IMG/VR virus record: IMGVR_UViG_3300035698_012504
Span: 1 to 58,693 of that record
Direction: 5' to 3' (one strand)
DNA length: 58,693 nucleotides
DNA from: a virus
In this document: positions 5,829 through 18,610 of the stretch, piece after piece
Numbering within the stretch: position 1 is the stretch's first letter
Layout: the number at the start of each line of letters is the position of its first letter
Notes under the pieces: generated by a model
What the model was told of the DNA's origin: nothing
The model's database searches: none
What the model saw: only the letters and a program-made list of their open reading frames with translations
Program-made: the position numbers and the translations under genes

Positions 5829-6077
5829 ATGCACATAGATGAAGACGGATTATACAATGAAGTTGCTCGTTATATTAGAACAAGGAATGATTTATCATTA
5901 GGACTTACTGTTATGAATATAACAAATGGTAAATTATTAATAGTAGTAGTTAATGACCCATCTAATAGAGGAACGCGGTTTAATCATGTAGATAATCTTA
6001 AAGAAATACTACCCAAAGTAATTCATTATTTCATATTAGTGTATATGGATGTTATGAAGGAAGGAATAAATATCTAA
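5829..6077 (+). CDS. hypothetical small protein, array member (C-term KEGINI)
   Basis: Preceded by AGAGGGATAGCCATATAAAGGAG. This restarts the array after a 126-nt spacer. Confidence 0.5.
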   Translation: MHIDEDGLYNEVARYIRTRNDLSLGLTVMNITNGKLLIVVVNDPSNRGTRFNHVDNLKEILPKVIHYFILVYMDVMKEGINI

Positions 6078-6451: not shown

Positions 6452-6810
6452 TATTTATATCTCCACCAGAAGATGGATTATATTCAGACTCAATTGTTAG
6501 GATAGAGCTTGTACCACACTCATCTAATCGCAGATATAAATTTATTGCTAATATTCCATCTAAACTAGATGATGTTTTATGTTCAATTTACGTCAGAAAA
6601 AAATCCCCATGGTGCCGAGACGATATAATAATAATATCATTCAAGCATCATAGATGTTATTTTCAAATATCTACTTTTAGTGGGTATGAACCAACTAAAG
6701 TATTTACTAAACCTAAAGTACAAACACTAATAACTAAACAGGGATGCAAATCAGAAGAAACTTATAGGGATATGGGTAGAATGTTTAGATGTGGAGGAAT
6801 CTCAATATGA
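6448..6810 (+). CDS. hypothetical small protein, array member (C-term CGGISI)
   Basis: ATGA-coupled. Confidence 0.5.
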   Translation: MIFISPPEDGLYSDSIVRIELVPHSSNRRYKFIANIPSKLDDVLCSIYVRKKSPWCRDDIIIISFKHHRCYFQISTFSGYEPTKVFTKPKVQTLITKQGCKSEETYRDMGRMFRCGGISI

Positions 6811-7037
6811 TATTCGACAACGGTAATAAATTGTTATTTAAAGATTGCTCGTTAGTATATGACTATCTTAAATTATATAATTACATTCACCTTCACCCTC
6901 ACCTTCACCCTCACCTTCACCTTCACCCTCACCCTCACCCTCACCTTCGCCCTCACTCCCGCCTTCCCCTTCACCCTCACCTTCAACCCGAAAAATTATT
7001 TAACTGGGTGTATAATAAAGGAGGAGTTGTGATATGA
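6807..7037 (+). CDS. hypothetical His/Pro/Leu-repeat protein, MIFDNGN subfamily (C-term KGGVVI)
   Basis: MIFDNGNKLLFKDCSLVYDYLKLY followed by HLHPHLHPHLHLHPHPHPHLRPH. It is a near-identical paralog of the ORF at 8556. Confidence 0.55.
   Translation: MIFDNGNKLLFKDCSLVYDYLKLYNYIHLHPHLHPHLHLHPHPHPHLRPHSRLPLHPHLQPEKLFNWVYNKGGVVI
6886..6988. repeat. hexanucleotide microsatellite (CACCTT/CACCCT)n, about 16 units, inside the CDS at 6807
   Basis: Direct reading shows cac ctt cac cct cac ctt ... repeated about 16 times. Confidence 0.9.
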
Positions 7038-7432
7038 TATTTGATACGACGTGTGAATATAACATGTATCAGTATGCATATGGAATGACTACACGTAAGA
7101 ATACAGTGACTAGAGAACATACTAGAATTACTATCCGTTCTCTTAGAGGTTATTGTTTCACATTCGAAAATCTAAGACATCCTCCGAAAGAATATGAAGG
7201 GCATTTTATATCGAGGGACGTTGAAGAGTTTTTAATAATTTATAAAGTAGATAGGATTACAGATGTTTATTACGATTTTATAAGAATAGGGAAAGTAGTG
7301 AGAGGGAAGAATCATTTAGTACGAAATGGAAAGAGAGAAATAATAATAACAACTGGTGTAAATCATACTACATCTGTTCCCAATGTATGTACAATTATAT
7401 TGGCGCTTTGTAGGAAAGGAACAGTCATATGA
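7034..7432 (+). CDS. hypothetical small protein, array member (C-term RKGTVI)
   Basis: ATGA-coupled. Confidence 0.5.
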   Translation: MIFDTTCEYNMYQYAYGMTTRKNTVTREHTRITIRSLRGYCFTFENLRHPPKEYEGHFISRDVEEFLIIYKVDRITDVYYDFIRIGKVVRGKNHLVRNGKREIIITTGVNHTTSVPNVCTIILALCRKGTVI

Positions 7433-7647
7433 TATTTGATAATGATAATAAAATGTTGATCGGAGATCCTACTAAAGCTTATAATACATATTGTTATATT
7501 AATACTCACACATGGGCAATTCAATATCTTAGTATGCATCTTCATACTAAATATCTTAATCTTACTCTTTTCCCACATTCTCGATTCCATCCTAGATTAG
7601 GAACCACATACAAATGGATAATTGAAAATAAAGGGGTCGTGATATGA
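7429..7647 (+). CDS. hypothetical small protein, MIFDNDN subfamily (C-term NKGVVI)
   Basis: MIFDNDNKMLIGD. ATGA-coupled. Confidence 0.5.
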   Translation: MIFDNDNKMLIGDPTKAYNTYCYINTHTWAIQYLSMHLHTKYLNLTLFPHSRFHPRLGTTYKWIIENKGVVI

Positions 7648-8006
7648 TATTTGAATCGGTTAACATTGATTTGTTTTGGAGAGATGGATTACATTTGAGA
7701 ACATTAAAACATGGTTATACCCACTTCTTTAGAGAAACTTACGTTGATAAAATATTTATGCATGATACATTTATAGGAGATTTATTACTCGAATGTATCC
7801 TTGTCAACCATATAGATTATATAAGAATACGAATTCCAACATTTCCATATAGATCCATGACATATAAATTTGATATGGGTACCGAGATACTCATTCGATT
7901 TGGATCTGGTAATATATTCTGTACGCAGACAAGTAAAAAAGAAGAAAAAATTAAGTGGTTTCAATTTGGAACTTTAGATATCATGACTAGAGGGGTAGTT
8001 ATATGA
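7644..8006 (+). CDS. hypothetical small protein, array member (C-term TRGVVI)
   Basis: Its MIFESV N-terminus is shared with the ORF at 9960. Confidence 0.5.
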   Translation: MIFESVNIDLFWRDGLHLRTLKHGYTHFFRETYVDKIFMHDTFIGDLLLECILVNHIDYIRIRIPTFPYRSMTYKFDMGTEILIRFGSGNIFCTQTSKKEEKIKWFQFGTLDIMTRGVVI

Positions 8007-8251
8007 TTTATGTATATGATGCATCAGATTCATTACAAGGTATAAGATTAGATGATATTGAATTTTATATATCATCGGATGCAGTATGTGATATGTGTAA
8101 GAGAACAGATATTATGTGTGATAATCAATGTGCTATTTACTTTAATTCATGGCCATTTACAGAGGTGACCAAAGAGTTTTATGTTCCACCACGACCAACC
8201 ATCCCTCTTATGTATAATTGGGTGAGGAGACAGATAGGAGCTGTTGTATGA
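8003..8251 (+). CDS. hypothetical small protein, array member (C-term QIGAVV)
   Basis: ATGA-coupled. Confidence 0.5.
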   Translation: MIYVYDASDSLQGIRLDDIEFYISSDAVCDMCKRTDIMCDNQCAIYFNSWPFTEVTKEFYVPPRPTIPLMYNWVRRQIGAVV

Positions 8252-8559
8252 TATATTTTACAAATGACACCCAGGGCGGGATGCAACAACATAATATAGA
8301 TGTCTACGTTAAAGATGTGTTACAGTTTTATAGACAAATCTATGATTTTGAACCTTACTATAATATACTAGATCCTATATTAAAGTATGCCCCAATATGT
8401 AGATATACTAGAGATGCTATATTATTTACACAAGAGGTATCCCCTGGTCTTTTTGGGGTTGTGATTAAAGAAGAACATCAAGAATTTCATGGAGTTAAAG
8501 TTACATTGTCTTTTATATGTGGATGGGTAATGCATCAACAACAAGGAGTAATTATATGA
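8248..8559 (+). CDS. hypothetical small protein, array member (C-term QQGVII)
   Basis: The start was moved to the ATG at 8248, which overlaps the previous TGA. Confidence 0.5.
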   Translation: MIYFTNDTQGGMQQHNIDVYVKDVLQFYRQIYDFEPYYNILDPILKYAPICRYTRDAILFTQEVSPGLFGVVIKEEHQEFHGVKVTLSFICGWVMHQQQGVII

Positions 8560-8786
8560 TGTTTGATAACGGTAATAAATTGTTATTTAAAGATTGCTCG
8601 TTAGTATATGACTATCTTAAATTATATGATTACATTCACCTTCACCTTCACCTTCACCCTCACCTTCACCCTCACCTTCACCTTCTCCCTCACCTTCTCC
8701 CTCACCCCCGCCTTTCCCTTCACCCTCACCTTCAACCCGAAAAATTATTTAACTGGGTGTATAATAGAGGAGGAGTAATAATATAA
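8556..8786 (+). CDS. hypothetical His/Leu/Pro-repeat protein, MIFDNGN subfamily (paralog of 6807)
   Basis: MMFDNGNKLLFKDCSLVYDYLKLYDYIHLHLHLHPHLHPH... The ends are near-identical to 6807..7037 and the repeat count differs. Confidence 0.55.
   Translation: MMFDNGNKLLFKDCSLVYDYLKLYDYIHLHLHLHPHLHPHLHLLPHLLPHPRLSLHPHLQPEKLFNWVYNRGGVII
8634..8738. repeat. hexanucleotide microsatellite (CACCTT/CACCCT/CTCCCT)n, second copy
   Basis: Direct reading. The unit order and count differ from the 6886..6988 copy. Confidence 0.9.
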
Positions 8787-8881
8787 TGTATGTAGATTGT
8801 ATGGATAAGGATATTTATCCAGAAGCCATTTAATTAGGATGTTCAAATACATATGATAAGAGTGGAGATACATGCGATCTA

Positions 8882-9139
8882 ATGTTTTGCAACTTCAGTG
8901 AAAAACATCCATATGAATTTCTTATGAAATTAGGAATATCTGATATAAGAATAAAAATATCATATCCAGTTGGAGAGCGAAGAGTAGTTAATTTAATGAT
9001 ACTTGGACTAAAGAGCGGTGATGGAATATATGTAAAGTTCAGCGCACTGAAGACAATAACAATTATGTCTGAAGATGGGGAACGCAAATGGAATGATTAC
9101 ATGGGTTGGTTTTTACAGCAAGGTATATATATTAAATAG
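8882..9139 (+). CDS. hypothetical small protein (C-term QQGIYIK)
   Basis: 85-aa ORF that follows a 95-nt spacer containing the small hairpin GGATAAGGATATTTATCC. Confidence 0.4.
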   Translation: MFCNFSEKHPYEFLMKLGISDIRIKISYPVGERRVVNLMILGLKSGDGIYVKFSALKTITIMSEDGERKWNDYMGWFLQQGIYIK

Positions 9140-9692
9140 TGACAGAAGGAATCTATTTCACACAACCAAAAAGGAGAGAAGTGTGAAGAATATTCATTGG
9201 CCCAAGGCGTGCATCTATATTTTTCTTTTACTGTTTTTATTACTTGCTAATGGGGAAATTGTAGGCGAGTTGAAAAGACCTATAATAGAATCCCAATTGA
9301 GTGCTGCGATAACAATTCCAGTTGTTATATTAGGTTTAAGTCAGAGCATATTCTTGGGATGGCTCATCGGGGCCATCGTCTGCTCATCTATAGGATTTAT
9401 GAATAATCCAATTGAACGTGTAATTGAAGAATTTGATAAAAAAGGAATACGAGCATATTATACAAATATGATATCTTTTTACGGGCTCATTATATTAACA
9501 CCATATAATTTATTTCTGTACTTTTGGCCAGTAGACGCAACTACTACGTTTATATTTGGAAACATTATGTTTTGGGCTGTATCTAGTATTATAATTTATA
9601 AGAATCTATGGGAGAACGTGAAGATTGACAACTTGGTTAAGGAGTGGTTCTTATGCAAGCCCTATCAGATATGTTTAAAATCTCAAAGCTAG
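9075..9692 (+). CDS. small integral membrane protein (4 to 5 predicted TM segments)
   Basis: Hydrophobic stretches IYIFLLLFLLLA, ITIPVVILGLSQSIFLGWLIGAIV and FYGLIILTPYNLFLYFWP. The start is uncertain; a GTG at 9183 follows AAGGAGAG. Confidence 0.5.
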   Translation: MGNANGMITWVGFYSKVYILNSDRRNLFHTTKKERSVKNIHWPKACIYIFLLLFLLLANGEIVGELKRPIIESQLSAAITIPVVILGLSQSIFLGWLIGAIVCSSIGFMNNPIERVIEEFDKKGIRAYYTNMISFYGLIILTPYNLFLYFWPVDATTTFIFGNIMFWAVSSIIIYKNLWENVKIDNLVKEWFLCKPYQICLKSQS

Positions 9693-9949
9693 CAGTCGCT
9701 GTATTCATTCTAATAAATGTACTACATGTATTGATGTTTGTTGTAGCTATACCTATAGTAGTTATGTTGTACACTAAACTTAAGCTTATGGGAACTATCC
9801 CAGAGGATGGGATTATACCACTTATAGTATTATTTGGGGGTGGTGCTACTGTTGGCTTAGCATTTTCGTCTATGAAAAAGAAAATTTTAGAGTGTGTGGT
9901 ACCTGAATCTATGCATAATGAAAATAACCCGATAGTGGATGAACTATAA
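9653..9949 (+). CDS. small membrane protein (2 to 3 TM segments)
   Basis: AAGGAG Shine-Dalgarno sequence, then ATG at 9653. Hydrophobic stretches LAVAVFILINVLHVLMFVVAIPIVVML and IIPLIVLFGGGATVGLAF. Confidence 0.5.
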   Translation: MQALSDMFKISKLAVAVFILINVLHVLMFVVAIPIVVMLYTKLKLMGTIPEDGIIPLIVLFGGGATVGLAFSSMKKKILECVVPESMHNENNPIVDEL

Positions 9950-9959
9950 GGATAAATCC

Positions 9960-10289
9960 ATGATATTTGAATCTGTTAAATCTATTAGCCCATTTAATAG
10001 TAGTAATATAACTAAATACCCATTTGGAGAATCTTTAGTAACATGTCAAGTAGATTATAATCTTAGAAAGAAGTTTAGGATAGGGATAACTGTAATAAAT
10101 CATAACACATATTATAAAGAAAAGGTAATTGTGATTTCCTATTTCCAAACAGATGGTAAGATTAGAAGTGCTGAAATAGGGCCTATACAAAAATCATCAT
10201 TTAGATCCTATTTTACCACTAAAATTATTACACATGGTGAAATCATTAATGCTTTTCTTAAACTGACGGGTAATGGAATAAGTATATGA
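9960..10289 (+). CDS. hypothetical small protein, array member (MIFESV...; C-term GNGISI)
   Basis: Start at the ATG at 9960 after AAGGA. Ends in the conserved junction. Confidence 0.5.
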   Translation: MIFESVKSISPFNSSNITKYPFGESLVTCQVDYNLRKKFRIGITVINHNTYYKEKVIVISYFQTDGKIRSAEIGPIQKSSFRSYFTTKIITHGEIINAFLKLTGNGISI

Positions 10290-10414
10290 TAGTAGATGGG
10301 TTAATCATGGGATCCAACTCATCAGAAGTTAGACTTCAAAAAATGATAATATCTGGTAGCCTCAAACCAGGACAAGAATATATATCTATTATTGATCTTA
10401 CAAAAAAAGAGTAG
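10286..10414 (+). CDS. hypothetical 42-aa peptide, array member (MIVDG...)
   Basis: ATGA-coupled to the ORF at 9960. Too short to appear in the ORF track. Confidence 0.3.
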   Translation: MIVDGLIMGSNSSEVRLQKMIISGSLKPGQEYISIIDLTKKE

Positions 10415-10482
10415 TATTTTTCATTAGATTTTATGGTGCGCTGGTCTCAGGGCCATTTGATCCACATCAATCCTATATCTCG

Positions 10483-10611
10483 GTGAGCAGATACATAGAG
10501 ATCGTAGATGTAGACGGTGGATTTAAATTAAAATATATACGAGAAAAATTTAAAACACTATTGATTGGAAATCTATACATTATGATATCGAAACGAGGGA
10601 TTCTAATATAA
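10483..10611 (+). pseudogene. decayed array member (GTG start, no Shine-Dalgarno sequence; ends SKRGILI*)
   Basis: 42-codon frame that ends with the array's tail motif immediately before AAAGGAGAGAAAATG of the next gene. Confidence 0.25.
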
Positions 10612-10621
10612 AGGAGAGAAA

Positions 10622-11548
10622 ATGACAGGCCGTAATGTAGATATCGCGGAACTATTATCTAGAGTAAAATCAACACTCTCTACTAATGTAGATGAGACTA
10701 TTGACATTCCTACCATTGCTGAACCAGAACCACCGAGGGCAAAGAAGTCTACAATTTCTAGAATTAAAGATAGTGGGTTATCCATAATATTAAATCCAAA
10801 GAATATATTGGGTCGATATAGAGTTAGACCAAATCATAGATTGTCTGCTTTGGGAGTAGATGCCGAGGATATACCATCTGTTAATAAATTTGAAAGAATA
10901 GATAGTATTTTTAGAAATGATAATGAGCACGATAGAATTGATATTGAGCTACTTCAATTAAAGATGGATCTCGCAGCAGGTACAGTAAAAGCAGTTGAAC
11001 CCAAATCATCAGAGAAGGTGATATATTTATCCCCTACTGTCCCTAGTGAACTTGATAGCTCATTATACTCATATGATGATCAAGAAGATCAATTAATGGA
11101 ATTTTCAAAATACTATTGCGAATGCGCCATTGAGAATGGATGGAAGATATTATTAAATACATCAAGTGCTGATCCAATAATATGGAGAAAACTTAGAGAT
11201 ATGTTTGGAGATAATATAATCCTAGCAGATGGTAATAGTCTGCGTCAAAGTGTAGTAGATAATGGATGTAAAATATTATTCATTGCAGGAGGAAGTACAG
11301 GAGCAGTTAACGATATTGAACGGATATATGATGAATGGAATACATATCAGTGTGGAAGCACAATTATATATCATGCCGTTTCATTTGGCGGAGTATATGA
11401 TGTGAATGGCGAAATAATTTATTCTCTTGGAGGAGAAGGAGTAGAATATATAAGGGACATTACAGATTCTCGTCATAGATCTCCAATGAGTAGAGCTATT
11501 ATGAGTAAGTTTTTTGAATTTGTCACAGAAAGATACTCTAGGTTTTAG
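10622..11548 (+). CDS. hypothetical protein with a C-terminal Rossmann-like segment (GCKILFIAGGSTGAVNDIER)
   Basis: 308-aa ORF with an AAGGAGAG Shine-Dalgarno sequence. Its GC content is visibly higher than the flanking sequence. Confidence 0.5.
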   Translation: MTGRNVDIAELLSRVKSTLSTNVDETIDIPTIAEPEPPRAKKSTISRIKDSGLSIILNPKNILGRYRVRPNHRLSALGVDAEDIPSVNKFERIDSIFRNDNEHDRIDIELLQLKMDLAAGTVKAVEPKSSEKVIYLSPTVPSELDSSLYSYDDQEDQLMEFSKYYCECAIENGWKILLNTSSADPIIWRKLRDMFGDNIILADGNSLRQSVVDNGCKILFIAGGSTGAVNDIERIYDEWNTYQCGSTIIYHAVSFGGVYDVNGEIIYSLGGEGVEYIRDITDSRHRSPMSRAIMSKFFEFVTERYSRF

Positions 11549-11560
11549 GAGAGAAACGCA

Positions 11561-12328
11561 ATGAGAAGGAAAGAAGTGTTTGTCATAGGGCTTGGAAATC
11601 CTGGGAACGCGGCCTCAATAGATTCTAGGCATAACGTTGGACAACTTGCCGTCGGTAGAGCACTTGCAATATATGGTGACTTACGTCCTCCAGGATCTGA
11701 GTCTCATAGGGACCGAATACAAAATGAAGATATTAAATTAAAATTGAGAAGAGCACCTATGTCAGTAAAAGATACAAGTATATTAAAATTTGGAGAGAAT
11801 CGAAGATCATATAAATATTACAGATCAACCGTGCTGCTCTATGGAATGACCATCAATTTTATAGAACCGGTTAATGTATATATGAACAGTTCTGGAAGAT
11901 TTATACGTGCGCTTAGATTAGATACAGATGAGTTTCTAGAAAATTTACTTATTATTCATGATGATATAGATTTACCAATTGGACGAGTGAGATTCCGTAC
12001 TGGGGGAGGGGACGGGGGACACAATGGAATAAAGAATATACGAGTAAATTTAGGAGATGATTTCTCTAGATTAAAAGTAGGAGTTGGAAGACCAACAGAT
12101 GATACAGTAGAACAATATCTAACTAGAGAAATGTCACTTAAACATAGGAAGCATATTAATAAGGTAATAGATACTATATTGAAAAAGTGTATGCTCGATT
12201 GGGCATTATATGGAACAGCGCATTGTTCTGTTAAGTACAACAAACTATTTGTTAATGGAAGTGGTAATGTTACTACATGGAAGAAACATCAAAAGGAGCT
12301 TGAAGAACTTGTGCGAAAAGAAGTCTGA
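11561..12328 (+). CDS. pth: peptidyl-tRNA hydrolase (Pth family) with an internal ~40-aa insertion
   Basis: GLGNPG...SRHNVG (Pth motif 1), VYMNSSG, IIHDDIDLPIGRVRFRTGGGDGGHNGIKNI (compare E. coli [28 protein letters not shown]) and LKVGVGRP. Confidence 0.85.
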   Translation: MRRKEVFVIGLGNPGNAASIDSRHNVGQLAVGRALAIYGDLRPPGSESHRDRIQNEDIKLKLRRAPMSVKDTSILKFGENRRSYKYYRSTVLLYGMTINFIEPVNVYMNSSGRFIRALRLDTDEFLENLLIIHDDIDLPIGRVRFRTGGGDGGHNGIKNIRVNLGDDFSRLKVGVGRPTDDTVEQYLTREMSLKHRKHINKVIDTILKKCMLDWALYGTAHCSVKYNKLFVNGSGNVTTWKKHQKELEELVRKEV

Positions 12329-12839
12329 AGACACACCAACTAATGCATTAAAAGAAATGATTGAAAAACGCGGGGAGATATCTGGAATGGCCCAAAAGAG
12401 CTCCAATGTAATAAGAATAATGATGTCTCTATTGGCATCAAGAGCATTGGATGTTTCAAATTCTATGGCAGCCCTTCATGCAGTGAATGATTTGTATGAC
12501 GGCGACACAGAAGAAGCTATGAAAAGTAGACGGAATGAGTATGTGAAACAATATCTATTAGCAGTTAAGTCATTTAAATCATTAGAAAGAAAAATACATG
12601 ACGATGTTGCTCCAACATTTTTTGATAATGTTGCAGTGCTTTTTCCAGATGAAATATTCACGTTGTTCCGAGATGAGATGTTAGTATATAAGGAAAGAGA
12701 ATTAGGGTTACCTGTTGACCCATCAGAAGTCCCATCACTTGATGAAATGAGAGCATTCTTTAATGTATTTCCAGAAGAGTCATTACGAAGTAGTATAAAT
12801 GATAGTTTTAGTCCACTTACTGGATCAGATGAAGATTAA
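12210..12839 (+). CDS. hypothetical protein (true start probably near 12358)
   Basis: The ORF overlaps the 3' end of pth. The internal start MIEKRG at 12358 lies after the pth stop. Confidence 0.4.
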   Translation: MEQRIVLLSTTNYLLMEVVMLLHGRNIKRSLKNLCEKKSEDTPTNALKEMIEKRGEISGMAQKSSNVIRIMMSLLASRALDVSNSMAALHAVNDLYDGDTEEAMKSRRNEYVKQYLLAVKSFKSLERKIHDDVAPTFFDNVAVLFPDEIFTLFRDEMLVYKERELGLPVDPSEVPSLDEMRAFFNVFPEESLRSSINDSFSPLTGSDED

Positions 12840-12854
12840 GAAGTAATTATTCGT

Positions 12855-12886
12855 GTCTGGGGCTCTCTAGTTAGAGGGTCCCAGAC
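12855..12886 (+). terminator. candidate stem-loop terminator (GTCTGGGGCTCTC-TAGTTA-GAGGGTCCCAGAC)
   Basis: Imperfect inverted repeat of about 12 bp directly after a stop codon. The T-tract is weak. Confidence 0.35.
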
Positions 12887-12995
12887 ATAATTAGCAGTAT
12901 CAACAATAAATATATTATTTTTTATTGTTGAAAATATAATGAGGACAAACTATTAGATGTATGATAGTTCGAAGTTACAATGTGAGGAGAGTAAA

Positions 12996-13595
12996 ATGAA
13001 AAGAATCTTAGCAAGTTTTCTTATTGTAATCGCCAGTATATTTATACTATCTGGTTGCAAAACGCCATCAGCGGTCCAAGATGCGAATCAGGTATCGATA
13101 ATGTATCTACATTTAATTCAAGAGGATGTAAATATTACAATTGATGCATTGTCTGAAGCAGCTAAAGAAGAATCTACAAGATATTATGATTTATGGTTAG
13201 AGGGTACTGAGAAATTAATTATCAGCAATTCAATGACTCCACAAGAAGCCATAGATGATTATAAAACAGCATTAGAGAGCGCAGCCACTCAGGTAGATGC
13301 CGCCAGTGACACGTATGACGATCTATCAAGAGAAATAAAGAGCGAAATTCAGAATAAAATAGTTAGAGCACAGAAATTAGCAGAGAAAATAGCAGAATAT
13401 CATCAAAGTGGTAGCATTTCGGCTGAAGATTTTGATGAAATTCTAAATGAAAGTGCAGAATTTGCAATTGAGATGGCAGAAGTAAGAAAAAATAGAGAAA
13501 AAGCCGTTGAATCTGCAAATGATGGCAAAGGTAGTGATTTATTGAATATTATTAAAAATAATGTGCTAAAAGGAATGGTTCCTAAAGAAAAATAG
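12996..13595 (+). CDS. lipoprotein (signal peptide with lipobox LSGC), predicted coiled-coil
   Basis: MKRILASFLIVIASIFILSGCKTP, with GAGGAGAG as Shine-Dalgarno sequence. Confidence 0.65.
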   Translation: MKRILASFLIVIASIFILSGCKTPSAVQDANQVSIMYLHLIQEDVNITIDALSEAAKEESTRYYDLWLEGTEKLIISNSMTPQEAIDDYKTALESAATQVDAASDTYDDLSREIKSEIQNKIVRAQKLAEKIAEYHQSGSISAEDFDEILNESAEFAIEMAEVRKNREKAVESANDGKGSDLLNIIKNNVLKGMVPKEK

Positions 13596-13611
13596 GAAAA
13601 AGGAGTAGAAA

Positions 13612-13911
13612 ATGGATGAAAGTTTAGTTGATTTAATTGCTGAATCTCTTATTGCAGTGGCCAAGGGCGTCGCCGTAGAAGAAAAGAAGGTAGTAGCTGA
13701 TAAGAGCTATCTAAATGCTCCTGAGTGGACTCCACCGGCCTCTGTGGTGAACGTAAAGCTAACAGAAGACCCTTTGTCAAAAGAGGAATACCAGGGATTA
13801 CTAGATAGGGTGGACGTTGCTATCGAACAAGAGACAGCACTGAAGGAAGGTCTATCAATCGCTGCTGAAGTACTAAATAAATTAAAAACAGTACTCCCAT
13901 TATTTATATAA
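13612..13911 (+). CDS. hypothetical acidic protein
   Basis: 99-aa ORF with an AAAGGAG Shine-Dalgarno sequence. Confidence 0.45.
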   Translation: MDESLVDLIAESLIAVAKGVAVEEKKVVADKSYLNAPEWTPPASVVNVKLTEDPLSKEEYQGLLDRVDVAIEQETALKEGLSIAAEVLNKLKTVLPLFI

Positions 13912-13925
13912 CTGAGGTAAGTAAT

Positions 13926-14189
13926 ATGTATGTATCCGAACAATTCATAAATAATTTACAAGAGAAGGGGCGCTTTGTTAGGGTTGCTAAGAAGCTATTC
14001 AAAAAGAAAAAACCTGAAGCACCACCTCCACCAAAAGGCATTAAAGAAAAACTTCAGCGTAAGTTTGCATCAATGAAAAATAATGCTGCTGAAAAAGCGA
14101 AAAAGAAAAAGAGAAAAAATACTATGCATGCGACAGCTGGAGTCGGAGTAGTTGGGATGGCTGCATTAGGAGCCCAAGACAGGCACTAA
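13926..14189 (+). CDS. small Lys-rich basic protein with a Gly/Ala hydrophobic C-terminus and an MYVSEQFI N-terminus
   Basis: KKLFKKKKPEAPPPPKG...KKKKRKN, then ATAGVGVVGMAALGA. Confidence 0.5.
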   Translation: MYVSEQFINNLQEKGRFVRVAKKLFKKKKPEAPPPPKGIKEKLQRKFASMKNNAAEKAKKKKRKNTMHATAGVGVVGMAALGAQDRH

Positions 14190-14211
14190 AATATTAAGGT
14201 AGGATTTTAAA

Positions 14212-15132
14212 ATGAGTAATGATTATAGAATATTTATTCACGTTGATGGAAATAGTCCTGGAGAATATACATATGGAGATTTATATTTTGAATATAAACC
14301 ATATTATATAGAGCGGACTAATAATGGTAAAACATTATTTGCACAAACCGCATCAGTAGAAGGAAAGTCTGCTTACTTAGATCCAGGCCATCCTGATAGA
14401 TCGTCTATTACAAATTATACAATTGAAGATAGAAGCTCTGTTAAAACCCTACGAGTTAGAGCATCTAGATCAGATGATGGATTGAGGTTGGAAAAACATA
14501 TCACAATACATCCCCCAAAATCCAGCAGTCTCGATAAAGGACAATATCATCGAGGTGCTCATGTAAAAGTATCTATAAATTATGACAATACAAAATATTC
14601 ATTAGTTGGTTGGAAAAAAGATGGAATTTTATGGTTAGAAACAACTGGGGATTCATCTAGTGTATACACTAACGACAATATCAAAATAGAGATGAATAGT
14701 AATATAACATTAGAGGCCTTATTTGTAGAGCAACCGGAAGCGGTGTTAAATAATAATGGGTCAATTACACAGACAGACACCCACTCTACAAGCGGTGTCT
14801 TAAATAAATTAGGTACGTTTGATTCTGGAGGAGTAGTTGTAGATCAACTGATGGCATCAGTGTCATCAAATGTGTTTGATCATCCTGGAACAGTAATTAG
14901 AAGTCCGTTAGTTCTAAACTATCAAGGTCCATATACTGCACTCGAATCATTAAGTATAAAAGAAGAAATAGTTCAAACGATAGGTAGAAAAAATAGTACA
15001 GCTGGTGGACCACTAATTAATAGGGGCGATCTAACTGTACTTGAAACAAGAGAACAATCTTGTAGACTGCTATATCCCGCTAGTGAAAGTGAATTTAGAT
15101 CCTGTATGGGTGACTTATACAATCAACTTTAG
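14212..15132 (+). CDS. hypothetical protein
   Basis: 306-aa ORF. Confidence 0.45.
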   Translation: MSNDYRIFIHVDGNSPGEYTYGDLYFEYKPYYIERTNNGKTLFAQTASVEGKSAYLDPGHPDRSSITNYTIEDRSSVKTLRVRASRSDDGLRLEKHITIHPPKSSSLDKGQYHRGAHVKVSINYDNTKYSLVGWKKDGILWLETTGDSSSVYTNDNIKIEMNSNITLEALFVEQPEAVLNNNGSITQTDTHSTSGVLNKLGTFDSGGVVVDQLMASVSSNVFDHPGTVIRSPLVLNYQGPYTALESLSIKEEIVQTIGRKNSTAGGPLINRGDLTVLETREQSCRLLYPASESEFRSCMGDLYNQL

Positions 15133-15142
15133 GAGGAATTTA

Positions 15143-16684
15143 ATGAGTTGGGTTTCACATAGACTAATTATGCATAATGACCCTAATACGTCCTTATCGC
15201 TCAATGTCTATCTCGAATCAGGAGTATTTGTTGAGAACGTTGGATACGAAAAGAAAAACTATGTTCCTGTTCGGTTAATGTTTCAAATAGTAGAATTTAA
15301 GAAAGAAACTAATTACTCTAAAATAGAACTTAATTATCCTGAACTAGTAGAATTGAATAGTAAAATTAGTAGGGCGTTGAGAAAACTTGACATCCTCTAC
15401 GATAATAAAGAAAAAATAACTATTGCGAAGTATACAGCGAAAGCTAAAAAACTTTTAACATTCACATTTAAAAGAAATCAAAATAAAGAGGGTGGAATAT
15501 CTATTAAGATAGATGACCAGAATGGTTCATTTGAAATAATGTTATCATTCACTACATTCCTGACTATAACTGAAGCGTTATCATCCATGGTAAGCAACTT
15601 CCCAGTTGTCTCTACAAATATGATGATAATTTCAAATCAAGAAAGAATACTAGAGTCGTTAGATAGGTTAGGATCCATACAACCAATCGCTACACCTCGA
15701 CCCGAACGACAACAAGAAAAAGTAATAGCAACCTCTAGTGCTGATGACTTCGATATAGTTAAAGAAGAGCCTAAAGTTGCAGCATCCTCTGGATTTGATG
15801 TGGAGGGGTTAGACCTCGACGCACTTAAAACTCAAATCACTGACGGGATAACCGATGGGATAGAGGACGAAGTATCTGATGACCGGTTTTTTCGGGTAGT
15901 ACTTAAAAATGATTTAACTAATCTAAAAAGTTGGACGACTTCTGTGCTCTGTACAGGAAAAGACACAGAAGCTATCATGTTTAGTCCATTATATGCATTA
16001 TTACGCAGTTCAATGAGTTTTAAAGATTTTAGTGAGCTTGAATTTAGAAAATCCTTCTTTAGTTATCAAGCAACACTACTAAAAGAAATTAAAGATCGTT
16101 CATTAAAGTATGTTTCGGGGGAATCTAAAGGATTTGGTATAATTCCCAACTATTCATTGAATTTTACAACTTCAGAATCGAAAAAAGTTTTTAGAACTGC
16201 ATTAGAATTATTCACTACCTTAGTAATTTATAGTAAAATAGCAATAGAAATATCTAGAATTAACAACTATGAAGTTAAAAATGATGCAGATGGTTATATC
16301 ATCGCACAATTTATACTAAATTCGACATTATCCCCACTAATAAAATCAATTTCAGAGAATTATAGAGATAAATTCTTAATGGATGCACTAAATCAGTTCA
16401 TTAGCATAAATGAATCAAGTATCATGACTAAAATTAGTACCGAATTTAATCAAATAACTGGTAAAAATTTATCAATTTCTGTCAAAGAATTCGAAATTAT
16501 GGCTGAAAAGCTAATCAATTCAGCTGAAAATAACAAAGATATAGAAGTTTTTCAAGAAAATATAACAAATATCGAAGATGTAAGGGATTTCTTTAATTCT
16601 ATTGAAGAAATAGAAGAAGATGATGTCCCTGAAGAAGAATTTCAAGTAGATACAATGGAAATTTTAAAAATAATGGATGAATAA
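15143..16684 (+). CDS. hypothetical large acidic protein
   Basis: The start was moved to the ATG at 15143 after TAGGAGGAATTTA. The C-terminus is an acidic tail. Confidence 0.45.
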   Translation: MSWVSHRLIMHNDPNTSLSLNVYLESGVFVENVGYEKKNYVPVRLMFQIVEFKKETNYSKIELNYPELVELNSKISRALRKLDILYDNKEKITIAKYTAKAKKLLTFTFKRNQNKEGGISIKIDDQNGSFEIMLSFTTFLTITEALSSMVSNFPVVSTNMMIISNQERILESLDRLGSIQPIATPRPERQQEKVIATSSADDFDIVKEEPKVAASSGFDVEGLDLDALKTQITDGITDGIEDEVSDDRFFRVVLKNDLTNLKSWTTSVLCTGKDTEAIMFSPLYALLRSSMSFKDFSELEFRKSFFSYQATLLKEIKDRSLKYVSGESKGFGIIPNYSLNFTTSESKKVFRTALELFTTLVIYSKIAIEISRINNYEVKNDADGYIIAQFILNSTLSPLIKSISENYRDKFLMDALNQFISINESSIMTKISTEFNQITGKNLSISVKEFEIMAEKLINSAENNKDIEVFQENITNIEDVRDFFNSIEEIEEDDVPEEEFQVDTMEILKIMDE

Positions 16685-16690
16685 TTACAA

Positions 16691-17314
16691 ATGTCTTTCA
16701 AATCGAAAATATTAAACATAAAGTTATCCCCAATGTGTAACAGGTCTCTTGTTTATACTACGTACCCTGCTGGTGTTCCAGTACATTTCTCTGTTAAGTT
16801 TCACAAAACTAACCCAGGGATTCAATTTGACGTTGGGAATAAAAACAAGGTTATAGAATCAGGAGAGGCAGTTGTTCGGATGTTTAGAAATCTGAACAAC
16901 TGTCTGTTCTGTAACATATTCTTAGATCTTGAGACTATACAGACAGGTAAACATGACTATAAAAATAGGTTTTCTTCGGTAAGGAAGCACTATAAAGATA
17001 AAGTCTTTAGATTCATAAATGAAAGATTAGATTTACATAGTAGTAATAATGGAAAAAATAGTTATCATAATAGTATAGGTGTATCGGGATGGAAAATCCA
17101 TGGGCTGGAGGATGACCTACTTTTTTATTTCGTTCAAAGAAACTTTTTCAATAAGATAACTGCAACAAATATAATAAGAACTGCAGGATTACAGTTCTCC
17201 ACGGCTAGAGGATTGAAATCTTTAGAAAATTATAAAGATGACTCTGAAAACTTCTTTAGAAAAGTTAATGAAAGTGATAATATGCAATTTCTTAATGAGG
17301 CTTTCAAAGAATAG
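16691..17314 (+). CDS. hypothetical protein
   Basis: 207-aa ORF. Confidence 0.45.
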   Translation: MSFKSKILNIKLSPMCNRSLVYTTYPAGVPVHFSVKFHKTNPGIQFDVGNKNKVIESGEAVVRMFRNLNNCLFCNIFLDLETIQTGKHDYKNRFSSVRKHYKDKVFRFINERLDLHSSNNGKNSYHNSIGVSGWKIHGLEDDLLFYFVQRNFFNKITATNIIRTAGLQFSTARGLKSLENYKDDSENFFRKVNESDNMQFLNEAFKE

Positions 17315-17323
17315 GAGAATATA

Positions 17324-18589
17324 ATGGCAGAAGAACCACTAAATCACCACATATCACCAAACATGGCGCATCACTATTATATTAATAATGTATTTAGTGC
17401 TTTTATACGTGGGATCGCAGATTATTTTAAAACAGAATGGTTTGATGGTAGAAATAAAGATATTGTAATATCTACATATGAAAAAGCAGTAGAACATTTT
17501 AGAAACCGTCAGAACTTTGGAGGAGAGAAATTTTCTCCCAAATATCCATTTATAACATTCAATCCAGAGATTGACTTCGAGCCAGATGACCCTATGGGGA
17601 AATTCTTTCACAATTATCCAATATACAAAGGTTATTCTTCACAAATAGCTGCTAATTTATATAGTCCTTATATTTTTGAAGATGATAATGTGACTATTTC
17701 TGCAGTTATGAATAGATATAAAGGAAACTTTGAAATGATATTGTGGGCTAGTTCTGTATATGAGCTAATAGATTTTAAGGCGTATACATATCAGTTTTTT
17801 GGTGGTATGAATCGCCCAATATATCCTGCTATAATCGAATCATACCTTACTCTACCAGATGAATTTATATATTATACATATGATAACCCATATACAGCAG
17901 AAAAATACAATCTAGATTGGGAAAAATCAACTGGAGAAATAAATCTATTTAAAAACATCAACCAGAACAAGATGGTGTTTCCCTTTGTTCTGAGACCTTG
18001 GATTAAACTAACTGGTGCCAGCGATGGTTCAGAAAAGTATGGTGGTTCTGGAGATGAAATCGGAGATCATAGATTAGTTATTAATATGGAATGGGAAGTA
18101 ACATTACCGACCCATATGATAATGAGAGCAAGGAAGTTTCCAGATAGGTGTCATAAATTTCAGATGGATATACAAGTATCATCAAGATATATTCCACTAG
18201 CAAATGATTCAAGTACCCAGTATCCTGTAGCAGATGAAGTGACCGTTGTTTATGATGACATGATTGATTCGACTGCATCAGCTGAAGAAGCAATGGTATC
18301 AGTTGACCTAATTTATCACGATGCATATCAGTATGTTTGGACACAAGAGGATTACGATCTAGCAAATTCAACTACAGTGGCCGACAAGGATAAAAAGATC
18401 TCTTTAGATATTCCGAGAGAACCAACGGACTGTGTGTATCTAAAAGTGTATGGTAAGTATGGGGAGCTAGTTCGAGACTTCTATTGGAATGTGGTATCAC
18501 AAAACCAATTAGAATTGGTAGCATTTAATTTAAATTCATTAGAAGTAGATGATATATTAATGATTGTATATTATACAGAAAATGATTAG
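17324..18589 (+). CDS. hypothetical protein
   Basis: 421-aa ORF with an AGGAGAATATA Shine-Dalgarno sequence. Confidence 0.45.
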   Translation: MAEEPLNHHISPNMAHHYYINNVFSAFIRGIADYFKTEWFDGRNKDIVISTYEKAVEHFRNRQNFGGEKFSPKYPFITFNPEIDFEPDDPMGKFFHNYPIYKGYSSQIAANLYSPYIFEDDNVTISAVMNRYKGNFEMILWASSVYELIDFKAYTYQFFGGMNRPIYPAIIESYLTLPDEFIYYTYDNPYTAEKYNLDWEKSTGEINLFKNINQNKMVFPFVLRPWIKLTGASDGSEKYGGSGDEIGDHRLVINMEWEVTLPTHMIMRARKFPDRCHKFQMDIQVSSRYIPLANDSSTQYPVADEVTVVYDDMIDSTASAEEAMVSVDLIYHDAYQYVWTQEDYDLANSTTVADKDKKISLDIPREPTDCVYLKVYGKYGELVRDFYWNVVSQNQLELVAFNLNSLEVDDILMIVYYTEND

Positions 18590-18610
18590 GAGAGATTTGG
18601 AGAATAAATA

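What the first reader, a model, noticed from the sequence alone, without database searches (positions are those of the whole stretch)
10620..14200. GC-rich compositional island carrying a phage-encoded peptidyl-tRNA hydrolase
By eye, roughly 10620..14200 runs at about 40 to 45% GC against roughly 27 to 30% for the flanks. It encodes a bona fide Pth, with motifs GLGNPG / RHNVG / HDDIDLP..GGGDGGHNGIKNI and a ~40-aa insert after motif 1. It also encodes a Rossmann-like hypothetical, a lipoprotein and small acidic and basic proteins, followed by a hairpin terminator. Pth is a core bacterial enzyme and is rare in phages. A phage copy could rescue tRNA pools from peptidyl-tRNA drop-off. Drop-off is the mechanism of lambda bar minigene toxicity, and an array of more than 35 mini-ORFs such as this phage carries is exactly what provokes it. 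It could also counter host defences that stall translation. The composition argues for recent acquisition from a higher-GC donor.
Basis: partly seen in the sequence, partly recalled or inferred. Interest (0 to 1): 0.6.

Follow-up and report, generated by a model that had tools for sequence, protein, structure and literature searches.

The report
Divergent phage-encoded peptidyl-tRNA hydrolase (Pth1)
A large T4-like phage known only from metagenomes carries a very diverged but apparently intact copy of the bacterial enzyme that frees tRNAs from aborted peptides; this is rare in phages but has precedent, and the "GC-rich island" said to carry it is a mild bump caused by amino-acid composition, with no sign of recent gene transfer.

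Summary
The Pth call is correct. ORF 11561-12328 (255 aa) passes the Pfam PF01195 and NCBIfam TIGR00447 equivalog cut-offs. It keeps all catalytic and substrate-binding residues and models as a Pth1 fold (TM 0.88 to solved Pth1s). It carries a ~40-aa basic, low-confidence insert after helix alpha1 and a ~28-aa C-terminal extension.

The "island" is overstated. GC is 35.6% against 31.3% for the rest of the window, not 40-45% against 27-30%. The excess sits at first codon positions. The Pth gene's GC3 (0.239) equals the window mean (0.237), and its synonymous codon usage ranks 42 of 94 genes. No protein in two multi-billion-sequence libraries exceeds ~37% identity, and Pth has the longest branch among its best hits. 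This is an old, ameliorated gene, not a recent import.

The minigene rationale fails. The upstream "mini-ORFs" are 63-152-aa genes with Shine-Dalgarno sites, and bar-like minigene strings are no more frequent than chance (21 observed, 30.5±5.1 expected).

Bacterial-type Pth1 is very rare in phages, though one case was published in 2021. I found about six more in large phage contigs, lying beside tRNA arrays, Thg1, RNA ligase or peptide deformylase.

Best reading: an active tRNA-recycling enzyme that supports phage translation. A counter-defence role remains possible. This is a new member of a known kind, of moderate interest.

The parts
10415..10621 (+). 207-bp non-coding gap upstream of the three-gene block. 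Probably the promoter region, but no promoter is established.
   Evidence: Sequence read. The sigma-70 consensus scan is no better than shuffles (36 found vs 33.4 expected). A 40-nt element at 10585-10624 resembles 5792-5831 (73%, family D11).
10622..11548 (+). 308-aa acidic ORFan (pI 5.0) with a strong SD (AAAGGAG). It ends 12 nt before pth.
   Evidence: No Pfam, PHROG, NCBIfam or PADLOC hit. Only itself among 5.8 billion proteins. AF2 pLDDT 39. Codon usage is typical (z=-0.69).
11561..12328 (+). Peptidyl-tRNA hydrolase, bacterial type (Pth1), 255 aa, pI 9.8.
   Evidence: PF01195 E=6e-34. TIGR00447 115.5 bits vs cut-off 100. Residues N13, H24, N109, D134 and N155 align with E. coli N10, H20, N68, D93 and N114. 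AF2 pLDDT 82.6, pTM 0.81. Foldseek finds solved Pth1 structures at E~1e-16, TM 0.88.
11675..11800 (+). Segment encoding the lineage-specific insert (res ~39-80). It is basic (the wider 38-86 stretch has pI ~10), mostly low-confidence or disordered, and ends in one extra beta-strand.
   Evidence: Alignment gap against 10 and 59 bacterial Pth1s. pLDDT <50 for res 46-55 and 62-64, helix 56-62, strand 69-77. Charge. Absent from all other viral-contig Pth1s.
12242..12325 (+). Segment encoding the C-terminal extension (res 228-255). Predicted as a small beta-hairpin plus a helix.
   Evidence: Alignment. AF2 strands 229-231 and 237-239, helix 240-254, pLDDT 65-79.
12309..12839 (+). Acidic ORFan of 160-176 aa. 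The start is GTG 12309 (overlapping the pth stop by 20 nt) or ATG 12357. It is the last gene before the hairpin.
   Evidence: Sequence. Gene calls on identical contigs. No family hits. pI 4.65.
12853..12888 (+). Perfect 16-bp stem-loop with no U-tract. It is a likely transcript-end or RNA-stability element and closes the ORFan-pth-ORFan block.
   Evidence: RNAfold -28.1 kcal/mol, z=-6.87, 0 of 200 shuffles as stable. Strongest 44-nt hairpin in the window. Unique in the window. Not scored as an intrinsic terminator.
12996..13595 (+). Predicted lipoprotein, 199 aa (MKRILASFLIVIASIFILSGC...). The mature part is acidic and helical.
   Evidence: Sequence, with SD GAGGAG before ATG 12996. Only sub-threshold family hits.
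13612..13911 (+). 99-aa acidic ORFan (pI 4.43). It is the GC-richest gene of the block (41.8%, GC1 0.61).
13926..14189 (+). 87-aa lysine-rich basic protein (pI 10.69) with a hydrophobic C-terminal segment (ATAGVGVVGMAALGA).

Best explanation
ORF 11561-12328 encodes a catalytically competent bacterial-type peptidyl-tRNA hydrolase (Pth1). It has been resident in this deep-branching T4-like phage lineage for a long time. It is probably made from a three-gene transcript (ORFan, pth, ORFan) that runs from the 207-bp gap at 10415-10621 to the strong hairpin at 12853-12888.

During infection it would add to the host's Pth capacity. It would hydrolyse the ester bond of peptidyl-tRNA and N-acyl-aminoacyl-tRNA released from aborted or stalled translation, so that tRNAs return to the pool and phage protein synthesis continues. 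This places it among the translation and tRNA-maintenance auxiliary genes of large phages, alongside tRNAs, peptide deformylase, Thg1, RNA ligase and PTH2.

Shown here: family membership, intact active-site residues, the fold, compositional amelioration, and extreme divergence. Inferred: enzymatic activity, the operon structure, and the benefit to the phage.

The 'GC island' is not a transfer island. It is a run of genes whose amino-acid composition raises first-codon-position GC.
For: Family and fold:
- PF01195 E=6e-34; TIGR00447 equivalog passed.
- N13/H24/D134 correspond to E. coli N10/H20/D93, the residues shown by mutagenesis to be crucial (PMC4929431). N109 and N155 match N68 and N114. 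R146 and K172 are conservative replacements of the 5'-phosphate clamp K105/R133.
- AF2 pTM 0.81; Foldseek top 50 are all Pth1/CRS2, TM 0.88.

Real and long-resident gene:
- Identical DNA in 5 independent assemblies, so it is not a chimera.
- GC3 0.239 vs window mean 0.237; synonymous codon-usage z=0.58, rank 42 of 94.
- Best identity anywhere ~37%, and the longest NJ terminal branch, 0.72 vs median 0.30.

Phage setting:
- T4-type clamp loader, primase, ThyX, RNR; all genes on one strand; SD-led genes.

Context of other phage Pth1 genes:
- Overlapping a peptide deformylase gene (L007).
- Next to Thg1 (L006).
- Inside tRNA arrays (L009, L010).
- About 3.8 kb from an RNA ligase (L008).
- With Ro60 and tRNAs (L014).

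Literature: Iyer et al. 2021 assign the same role to jumbo-phage PTH2 and Pth1 (PMC7824862).
Against: - No activity data exist.
- The protein is far more diverged than any cellular Pth1 sampled, and carries a 40-aa insert and a C-terminal extension of unknown effect.
- In this window pth is flanked only by ORFans. There is no tRNA gene in 58.7 kb, so the tRNA/translation neighbourhood seen in other phages is absent here.
- The host is unknown, so whether host Pth is limiting cannot be judged.
- There are no sequence variants of this phage, so purifying selection could not be measured.
Confidence: 0.6

Rival explanations
1. Same chemistry, but selected as a counter-defence. The phage Pth would undo host abortive-infection or toxin activities that load tRNAs with blocked acyl groups, such as GNAT toxins of the TacT/AtaT/ItaT type that N-acetylate aminoacyl-tRNA. 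Or it would clear peptidyl-tRNA left on ribosomes or 50S subunits after defence nucleases cut mRNA or tRNA. The basic insert and C-terminal extension would provide extra RNA or ribosome contacts.
For: - N-acetyl-aminoacyl-tRNA is the minimal Pth substrate (PMC11994314).
- Pth detoxifies TacT-acetylated tRNA in Salmonella and M. tuberculosis (PMC4942678 and PMC9241777).
- Pth releases nascent chains in bacterial RQC (Svetlov 2024, cited in PMC11994314).
- Iyer et al. propose phage PTH for ribosomes jammed by cleaved tRNAs.
- The window also encodes a macro domain (19174-19704) and a LigD-type 3'-phosphoesterase (51494-51940). Other phage Pth1 genes sit near RNA ligase or Thg1.
- The insert is basic, and some bacterial Pths carry basic inserts at the same site (P0134).
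Against: - No defence system or host is identified.
- No PADLOC hit for pth or its neighbours.
- No RNA ligase or Pnk was found next to pth in this window.
- The insert is predicted disordered, with no recognisable domain.
- The idea rests entirely on analogy.
Confidence: 0.2
2. One reading: a recently imported island from a higher-GC bacterium, with Pth needed to cope with peptidyl-tRNA drop-off provoked by the phage's own array of mini-ORFs (lambda bar-like).
For: - The region has the highest GC of any 3.6-kb stretch in the window (35.6%).
- Gene-level GC is higher inside than outside (p=0.006).
- Lambda growth is known to depend on Pth because of bar minigenes (background in PMC8012679 and PMC2490762).
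Against: - GC3 is not elevated (p=0.25), and pth GC3 equals the window mean.
- Codon usage is typical. Dinucleotide delta* is exceeded by 9.5% of same-size windows.
- No homologue above ~37% identity exists in 5.8 billion or 1.84 billion protein libraries. The neighbour is a complete ORFan.
- There is no tRNA in the window, and no repeat pair brackets the block among the 20 largest direct-repeat families and 6 inverted pairs shown for 1-20000.
- The small ORFs are 63-152 aa.
- Minigene-like strings number 21 vs 30.5±5.1 expected.
Confidence: 0.04
3. A Pth-derived protein that has lost hydrolase function and acts as an RNA-binding or chaperone factor, like chloroplast CRS2, which promotes group II intron splicing.
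For: - Long branch, insert and extension.
- CRS2 structures are among the sequence and fold hits.
- The phage carries homing-endonuclease-type genes.
Against: - All catalytic and substrate-binding residues are retained.
- It passes the equivalog cut-off.
- No intron or any other Rfam family is detected in the window at gathering threshold.
- CRS2 scores lower than bacterial Pths (E~1e-14 vs 1e-23).
Confidence: 0.05

Closest known systems
Bacterial peptidyl-tRNA hydrolase Pth1 (E. coli Pth; Pfam PF01195, NCBIfam TIGR00447)
   Same: Profile scores are above the curated cut-offs. It keeps the Asn10/His20/Asp93 catalytic set and Asn68/Asn114, has basic residues at the K105/R133 positions, and has the same alpha/beta fold.
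   Different: It is 255 aa rather than ~185-200. It has a ~40-aa basic insert between alpha1 and beta2 and a ~28-aa C-terminal extension. It is only 27-37% identical to any cellular Pth1 and has the longest branch among its hits. It is encoded by a phage and lacks the usual bacterial neighbours.
Pth1 of a metagenomic group-2 jumbo phage (AXH72886.1; Iyer et al. 2021, PMC7824862) and the Pth1 genes of IMG/VR contigs L006-L010 and L014
   Same: A bacterial-type Pth1 carried by a large, mostly low-GC phage genome and sporadic in distribution. It presumably supports tRNA recycling or ribosome rescue.
   Different: The window protein is only 25-32% identical to the IMG/VR copies. Those copies form their own small clusters (L006/L007 49%, L008/L010 44.5%), are 162-214 aa, and lack the insert. 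They lie beside tRNAs, Thg1, RNA ligase or peptide deformylase, whereas here the neighbours are ORFans and the window has no tRNA. AXH72886.1 itself could not be retrieved for comparison.
PTH2 (archaeo-eukaryotic type) of Rak2-like and other jumbo phages
   Same: Same reaction and the same proposed role in phage-infected cells (PMC7824862; PMC3622015).
   Different: An unrelated fold and family. PTH2 is the usual phage choice, and Pth1 is the exception.
CRS2, chloroplast group II intron splicing factor derived from Pth
   Same: A Pth1-fold protein outside its housekeeping setting. It is recovered by both sequence and fold searches.
   Different: CRS2 is a splicing cofactor. Here the active site is intact and no intron RNA was detected.
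Phage translation-support auxiliary genes (peptide deformylase, tRNA arrays, Thg1, RNA ligase/Pnk repair)
   Same: A host-like translation or tRNA-maintenance function carried by large phages. Pth1 is physically linked to these genes in other phage contigs.
   Different: There is no such linkage in this window.

Membership tests
Pth1 (PF01195 / TIGR00447) | Profile-HMM score above the curated family thresholds | tested here: met
   PF01195 117.9 bits vs 27. TIGR00447 equivalog 115.5 bits vs 100.
Pth1 (PF01195 / TIGR00447) | Catalytic residues Asn10, His20, Asp93 (E. coli numbering; PMC4929431) | tested here: met
   N13, H24 and D134 lie in invariant columns of alignments A1 and A2. The E. coli sequence used was verified identical to PDB 3vjr/2pth.
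Pth1 (PF01195 / TIGR00447) | Substrate-binding Asn68 and Asn114, and the basic 5'-phosphate clamp (Lys105, Arg133) | tested here: met
   N109 and N155 are conserved. R146 aligns with K105 and K172 with R133; these are conservative swaps also seen in bacterial homologues.
Pth1 (PF01195 / TIGR00447) | Single-domain alpha/beta fold of solved Pth1 structures | tested here: met
   AF2 pLDDT 82.6, pTM 0.81. Foldseek vs PDB: 7y52_B E=1.7e-16, TM(target) 0.88. The insert (res ~39-68) is low-confidence.
Pth1 (PF01195 / TIGR00447) | Compact length (~185-200 aa) without insertions | tested here: not met
   255 aa, with a ~40-aa insert and a ~28-aa C-terminal extension. A few bacterial Pths also carry inserts at this site (P0134, P0157, P0171).
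Pth1 (PF01195 / TIGR00447) | Hydrolysis of peptidyl- or N-acyl-aminoacyl-tRNA; complementation of pth(ts) | not testable with these tools
   Needs a wet-lab assay.
Recently transferred compositional (genomic) island | Deviant base composition at synonymous (third-codon) sites | tested here: not met
   GC3 is 0.267 inside vs 0.236 outside (p=0.25). The pth gene's GC3 is 0.239 vs a mean of 0.237. The excess is in GC1.
Recently transferred compositional (genomic) island | Deviant synonymous codon usage or dinucleotide signature | tested here: not met
   pth z=0.58, rank 42 of 94; the 308-aa ORF z=-0.69. Delta* of 0.085 is reached by 9.5% of same-size windows.
Recently transferred compositional (genomic) island | Close homologues in a plausible donor | tested here: not met
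   The best non-self hit is ~31-37% identical across 5.8 billion and 1.84 billion protein libraries. The 308-aa neighbour has none.
Recently transferred compositional (genomic) island | Boundaries marked by tRNA, integrase or flanking repeats | tested here: not met
   No tRNA in the window. No repeat pair brackets the block among the 20 largest direct-repeat families and 6 inverted pairs shown for 1-20000. No integrase-like Pfam hit among the proteins scanned.
Lambda bar-type minigene load | SD-led ORFs of 2-4 codons, enriched or arrayed | tested here: not met
   21 such strings vs 30.5±5.1 expected. They are scattered, and the arrayed ORFs are 63-152 aa.
Phage tRNA/translation-maintenance module (Iyer et al. 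2021) | Pth co-located with tRNA genes, RNA repair or other translation genes | tested here: not met
   In this window there is no tRNA and the neighbours are ORFans. In other phage contigs the feature is met: L006 Thg1, L007 PDF, L008 RNA ligase, L009/L010/L014 tRNAs.
CRS2-like splicing factor | Presence of group II (or other) introns to act on; loss of Pth function | tested here: not met
   No Rfam family at gathering threshold in the window. Catalytic residues are retained.

The most novel reading that the evidence does not exclude
The basic ~40-aa insert and the C-terminal hairpin-helix extension retarget this Pth1. It would act on ribosome- or 50S-bound peptidyl-tRNA, or on defence-modified tRNAs such as N-acetylated aminoacyl-tRNA from GNAT toxins or peptidyl fragments of nuclease-cleaved tRNAs. 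That would make it a dedicated phage anti-defence enzyme rather than a housekeeping supplement, and the flanking ORFans (308 aa and 160-176 aa, apparently in the same operon) would be its partners.
Probability: 0.15. Interest if true: 0.65.

Novelty: new member of a known kind. Interest (0 to 1): 0.35.

Why it matters
Pth1 is essential in bacteria and is being pursued as an antibiotic target. Phages almost never carry it, and when they need this chemistry they usually carry the unrelated PTH2. A phage lineage that has kept a Pth1 long enough for it to become the most diverged member of the family, with its active site intact, argues that tRNA release from aborted peptides can limit phage growth.

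It also provides a natural variant for asking what the alpha1-beta2 insert and the C-terminal extension do. Together with the six or so other phage Pth1 genes found here next to tRNA arrays, Thg1, RNA ligase and peptide deformylase, it supports the view that large phages assemble tRNA and ribosome-rescue toolkits. If the counter-defence reading were right, it would be a new class of anti-toxin strategy.

The compositional-island and minigene arguments should not be propagated.

Tried and rejected
- Close relatives of the phage were sought so that synteny and selection could be examined. Megablast of 10000-15000 against GenBank phages found nothing. IMG/VR scans with Pth, the 308-aa ORF, the clamp loader and the 421-aa ORF as single queries all found nothing. 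All contigs carrying the exact Pth are 100% identical in DNA to the window, so dN/dS was impossible.
- The best non-self hit of the exhaustive HMMER search (P0121, 566 aa) turned out to be a tandem-duplicated bacterial Pth whose score is inflated by its two domains. It is not a relative with the insert.
- The single-sequence AF2 model of the 308-aa neighbour, run to test 'Rossmann-like', gave pLDDT 39. No fold search was run on it because the result would be meaningless.
- The PADLOC scan of the block gave no credible defence or anti-defence hit. The only hits were sub-threshold ZorA matches to the lipoprotein.
- The sigma-70 promoter and intrinsic-terminator scan of 9000-16000 was no better than shuffles, so no promoter is claimed.
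- A literature search for the sample accessions, to learn the habitat or host, found nothing.
- I considered whether the window could be from a eukaryotic giant virus or an archaeal virus, because of a Volactin-family actin and many glycosyltransferases. I rejected this because of ubiquitous Shine-Dalgarno sites, overlapping ATGA junctions and T4-type replication genes.

Full report
**1. Composition**

The stretch 10620-14200 has 35.6% GC. The rest of the window has 31.3%, and the 5-kb flanks have 32.5% and 31.5%. Among all windows of the same length it is the maximum (mean 31.6%, SD 1.4%), so a bump exists. Only one 200-bp bin exceeds 40%. Values of 34-36% continue to about 16 kb, and single 1-kb windows elsewhere are as high (4501-5500 at 36.9%; 45501-46500 at 36.6%).

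Splitting by codon position shows where the excess lies. First positions are 0.496 inside and 0.401 outside (Mann-Whitney p=0.006). Third positions do not differ significantly (0.267 vs 0.236, p=0.25). The pth gene's GC3 is 0.239, against a mean of 0.237 over the 91 ATG-started ORFs scored in that call.

Synonymous codon usage was scored on a curated set of 94 genes, conditioned on each gene's amino-acid content. It is ordinary for pth (z=0.58, rank 42 of 94) and for the 308-aa neighbour (z=-0.69). The dinucleotide-signature distance of the region is reached by 9.5% of same-size windows. The bump therefore reflects amino-acid composition (Gly/Ala/Asp/Glu/Val-rich proteins), not foreign mutational history.

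**2. The Pth gene**

ORF 11561-12328 (255 aa) matches Pfam PF01195 at E=6e-34. It also passes NCBI's equivalog model TIGR00447, with 115.5 bits against a cut-off of 100.

I aligned it with ten Pth1 sequences, including E. coli Pth. I checked that the E. coli sequence is identical to PDB 3vjr/2pth. In this alignment the following residues correspond:

| Phage residue | E. coli residue | Role |
|---|---|---|
| N13 | N10 | catalytic |
| H24 | H20 | catalytic |
| D134 | D93 | catalytic |
| N109 | N68 | substrate binding |
| N155 | N114 | substrate binding |
| R146 | K105 | 5'-phosphate clamp (conservative swap) |
| K172 | R133 | 5'-phosphate clamp (conservative swap) |

Asn10, His20 and Asp93 are the residues shown by mutagenesis to be crucial (PMC4929431).

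An AlphaFold2 model built on 59 homologues has pLDDT 82.6 and pTM 0.81. Foldseek against the PDB returns only Pth1 structures and CRS2 in its top 50, with a best E of 1.7e-16 and TM 0.88 normalised to the target.

Two features are lineage-specific:
- A ~40-aa insert (res ~39-80) lies between helix alpha1 and the first strand of the beta2/beta3 hairpin. It is basic (the wider 38-86 stretch has pI ~10) and mostly below pLDDT 60. It contains a short helix and one extra strand.
- A ~28-aa C-terminal extension is modelled as a small hairpin plus a helix.

The insert starts at the far end of alpha1, about four helical turns from His24. By inference it should not block the active-site cleft. A few bacterial Pths also carry inserts, some of them basic, at the same site (P0134, P0157, P0171).

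**3. How old is the gene?**

A search of about 5.8 billion proteins finds only the identical sequence. Below that come ordinary 185-200-aa bacterial Pths at about 31-37% identity. An exhaustive HMMER scan of 1.84 billion cluster representatives gives the same picture. Only the protein itself scores below 1e-30. The next hit (P0121) is a tandem-duplicated Pth whose score is inflated by its two domains.

Among its 59 best hits, the phage protein has the lowest mean identity (31.6%; the others average 40.4% to each other). It also has the longest neighbour-joining terminal branch (0.72 vs a median of 0.30). Combined with the fully ameliorated synonymous sites, this contradicts recent acquisition from a higher-GC donor. 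The gene is an old resident, or it has evolved fast within the phage.

The same DNA, 100% identical, occurs in five independent assemblies from ENA, Logan and JGI. This rules out an assembly chimera. It also leaves no variation with which to measure selection.

**4. What carries it?**

The window encodes a T4-type clamp loader. Its best match is 36% identity to Ralstonia jumbo phage RsoM2USA, followed by cyanomyophages and pelagimyophages. It also encodes a primase, ThyX, ribonucleotide reductase and a homing-endonuclease-like protein.

All substantial ORFs are on one strand. Genes have GGAGG-type Shine-Dalgarno sites and frequent ATGA stop/start overlaps. There is no tRNA gene and no Rfam family. 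No close relative exists in GenBank phages or IMG/VR. This is a deep-branching T4-like phage of a bacterium, and possibly a very large one (see section 10).

**5. The local gene block**

The block starts after a 207-bp non-coding gap (10415-10621). It contains three genes:
- A 308-aa acidic ORFan (10622-11548).
- pth, 12 nt downstream and with its own SD.
- A 160-176-aa acidic ORFan, which starts at GTG 12309 (overlapping the pth stop) or at ATG 12357.

The block ends at a perfect 16-bp stem-loop at 12853-12888. This hairpin scores -28.1 kcal/mol with z=-6.9. It is the most stable local hairpin in the whole window, and it is not followed by a U-tract.

Downstream of it are a lipoprotein gene (12996-13595, lipobox LSGC), a 99-aa acidic protein and an 87-aa lysine-rich protein with a hydrophobic tail.

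None of these neighbours matches any Pfam, PHROG, NCBIfam or PADLOC family above threshold. The 308-aa protein has no homologue at all. Its 'Rossmann-like' label cannot be tested: the single-sequence model has pLDDT 39, with only a suggestive beta-alpha-beta pattern in its C-terminal half.

**6. Rarity in phages**

- tblastn of the phage Pth against 50,697 GenBank phage records finds nothing at 1e-5.
- A typical bacterial Pth1 (Liberibacter) finds 21 records. All are multi-contig 'phage' assemblies or faecal 'Bacteriophage sp.' fragments at 34-49% identity. They look like co-assembled host DNA.
- The BFVD library of viral protein structures has no match at E<=1e-3.
- Iyer et al. (PMC7824862) report that jumbo phages typically carry the archaeo-eukaryotic PTH2, as first noted for RaK2 (PMC3622015). 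They found a single metagenomic group-2 jumbo phage with a bacterial-type Pth1.
- A motif-based scan of 2.9 million IMG/VR contigs with the Pth alignment returned 14 loci. Five of these look bacterial; for example, L017 is 77% identical to E. coli Pth.

About six of the IMG/VR loci are plausibly phage, and their contexts are informative:

| Locus | Contig | Context of Pth1 |
|---|---|---|
| L007 | 190 kb, with a jumbo-phage RNA polymerase beta subunit | pth overlaps the start of a peptide deformylase gene |
| L006 | 86 kb | a Thg1 tRNA-His guanylyltransferase lies two genes downstream |
| L008 | 313 kb, 21% GC | an RNA ligase lies about 3.8 kb upstream |
| L009 | 545 kb | pth lies between tRNA-Tyr and tRNA-Lys in a six-tRNA stretch |
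| L010 | 94 kb | seven tRNAs lie upstream |
| L014 | 25 kb | Ro60-like protein, RNR, terminase and three tRNAs |

These copies are 162-214 aa and lack the insert. They are only 25-32% identical to the window protein. They form two small clusters of their own (L006/L007 at 49%; L008/L010 at 44.5%). This suggests several independent captures.

**7. The minigene idea**

The first 10.3 kb of the window holds about 30 small genes of 63-152 aa. Each has a Shine-Dalgarno site. Many are paralogues that share N-termini such as MIFDNG. These are ordinary early-type small proteins.

Lambda bar toxicity comes from 2-3-codon ORFs (background: PMC8012679 and PMC2490762). Strings of SD, ATG, 0-3 sense codons and a stop number 21 on the coding strand. 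Composition-matched simulations give 30.5±5.1, and the observed strings are scattered. Nothing in the sequence suggests a self-inflicted drop-off load.

**8. Mechanism**

The best-supported reading (confidence ~0.6) is an active Pth1 that raises the infected cell's capacity to hydrolyse peptidyl-tRNA and N-acyl-aminoacyl-tRNA. This would keep tRNAs available for phage translation. It is the same logic as for phage tRNAs, peptide deformylase, Thg1, RNA-repair enzymes and PTH2.

Family membership, intact active-site residues, the fold and long residence are shown. Activity, co-transcription with the flanking ORFans and the fitness benefit are inferred.

A more specific variant (~0.2) is counter-defence:
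- N-acetyl-aminoacyl-tRNA is the minimal Pth substrate (PMC11994314).
- Pth reverses the action of tRNA-acetylating GNAT toxins (PMC4942678 and PMC9241777).
- Pth releases nascent chains from obstructed 50S subunits in bacterial RQC (Svetlov et al. 2024, cited in PMC11994314).
- Iyer et al. proposed phage PTHs for ribosomes jammed by cleaved tRNAs.

The basic insert and the extension could add RNA or ribosome contacts, but this rests on analogy alone.

A CRS2-like non-catalytic role (~0.05) is disfavoured by the intact active site and by the absence of any detected intron RNA. The recent-island and minigene reading (~0.04) is contradicted as described above.

**9. Verdict**

The Pth, its motifs, the insert and the neighbouring small proteins are real. 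The GC contrast is much weaker than stated and does not affect synonymous sites. The hairpin is misplaced.

A genuine and rare phage Pth1 is present. It is neither recently acquired nor linked to minigenes.

It is a new, unusually diverged member of a known kind: phage-borne translation and tRNA-maintenance genes, with bacterial-type Pth1 already reported once in a jumbo phage. Interest is moderate (0.35). It would rise to about 0.65 if the insert-bearing enzyme proved to be a dedicated anti-defence factor.

**10. Other things seen**

- An actin-like protein of the Volactin family lies at 56158-57222 (PF25216, E=1.3e-61). Its only phage matches are two huge uncultured phages of 485 kb and 595 kb.
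- There are large sets of glycosyl-, sulfo- and methyl-transferases.
- A macro domain lies at 19174-19704 and a LigD-type 3'-phosphoesterase at 51494-51940.
- A 239-bp duplicated segment (6805-7043 and 8554-8792, 92% identical) carries small genes that are the real compositional outliers of the window: GC3 0.43 and 0.37, codon-usage z 8.7 and 5.6.

Noticed in passing
window 1-10300: About 30 tightly packed small genes (63-152 aa), each with a GGAGG-type SD and often an overlapping ATGA stop/start. Several paralogue families share conserved 5' ends (e.g. MIFDNG...; repeat families D2-D7). 14 of 94 genes have ATA as the second codon. They look like a diversifying early-gene array, not minigenes.
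   Followed up: partly
window 6805-7043 and 8554-8792: A 239-bp direct duplication (92% identity) covering two small genes (about 6807-7037 and 8517-8786). These are the true compositional outliers of the window: GC 41% and 39%, GC3 0.43 and 0.37 vs a mean of 0.237, synonymous codon-usage z=8.7 and 5.6. They are possibly recently acquired or mobile.
   Followed up: partly
window 56158-57222: 354-aa actin-like protein matching Pfam Volactin (PF25216) at E=1.3e-61 over its full length. Among 50,697 GenBank phage records only two huge uncultured phages (LR745208.1, 485 kb, 36% identity; LR756511.1, 595 kb, 28% identity) encode a relative. This hints that the phage belongs with huge phages and may build a cytoskeletal structure.
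   Followed up: partly
window 24654-37500 and 48960-55300: An unusually large complement of glycan and small-molecule modification enzymes: several GT2 glycosyltransferases, rhamnosyltransferase-like proteins, two sulfotransferases, methyltransferases, a hexapeptide acyltransferase, ATP-grasp (Ter-operon type), GDPD and GNAT. The target (DNA, virion or host surface) is unknown.
   Followed up: no
window 19174-19704 and 51494-51940: A macro-domain protein (PF01661, 3e-09) and a stand-alone LigD-type 3'-phosphoesterase (PF13298, 6e-15). Both could belong to nucleic-acid end-healing or ADP-ribose counter-defence functions, which bears on the counter-defence reading of Pth.
   Followed up: no
window 40573-43803 and 46574-48415: The ribonucleotide reductase ORF is 1076 aa and matches the PHROG RNR profile in two stretches, which suggests an inserted element. 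A 613-aa homing-endonuclease-like protein lies downstream and has a 43%-identical homologue next to the Pth1 locus of IMG/VR contig L007.
   Followed up: no
window 58513-58556 and 16865-16908: Two further very stable hairpins (-25.1 and -24.7 kcal/mol), second only to the one at 12853-12888. The second lies inside ORF 16691-17314.
   Followed up: no
window 5792-5831 and 10585-10624: A 40-nt element (73% identity; ATAT..GAGGGAT..ATATAAAGGAGA..ATG) precedes both gene 5829-6077 and the 308-aa ORF that heads the pth block. It may be a shared regulatory or translation-initiation region (family D11).
   Followed up: no
L007 7842-8974; L009 7485-9231; L010 2644-8390; L006 7989-9841; L008 3037-8423: In other large phage contigs, Pth1 overlaps a peptide deformylase gene (L007), sits inside tRNA arrays (L009, L010), lies next to Thg1 (L006) or lies near an RNA ligase (L008). 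This is a recurrent tRNA/translation-maintenance neighbourhood that appears not to have been described for Pth1.
   Followed up: partly
L008 (IMG/VR contig of 313 kb): The 16-kb locus has only 21% GC, extremely low for a phage contig of this size. I did not check whether the contig is a phage or a reduced symbiont genome, beyond an RNA-ligase PHROG hit.
   Followed up: no
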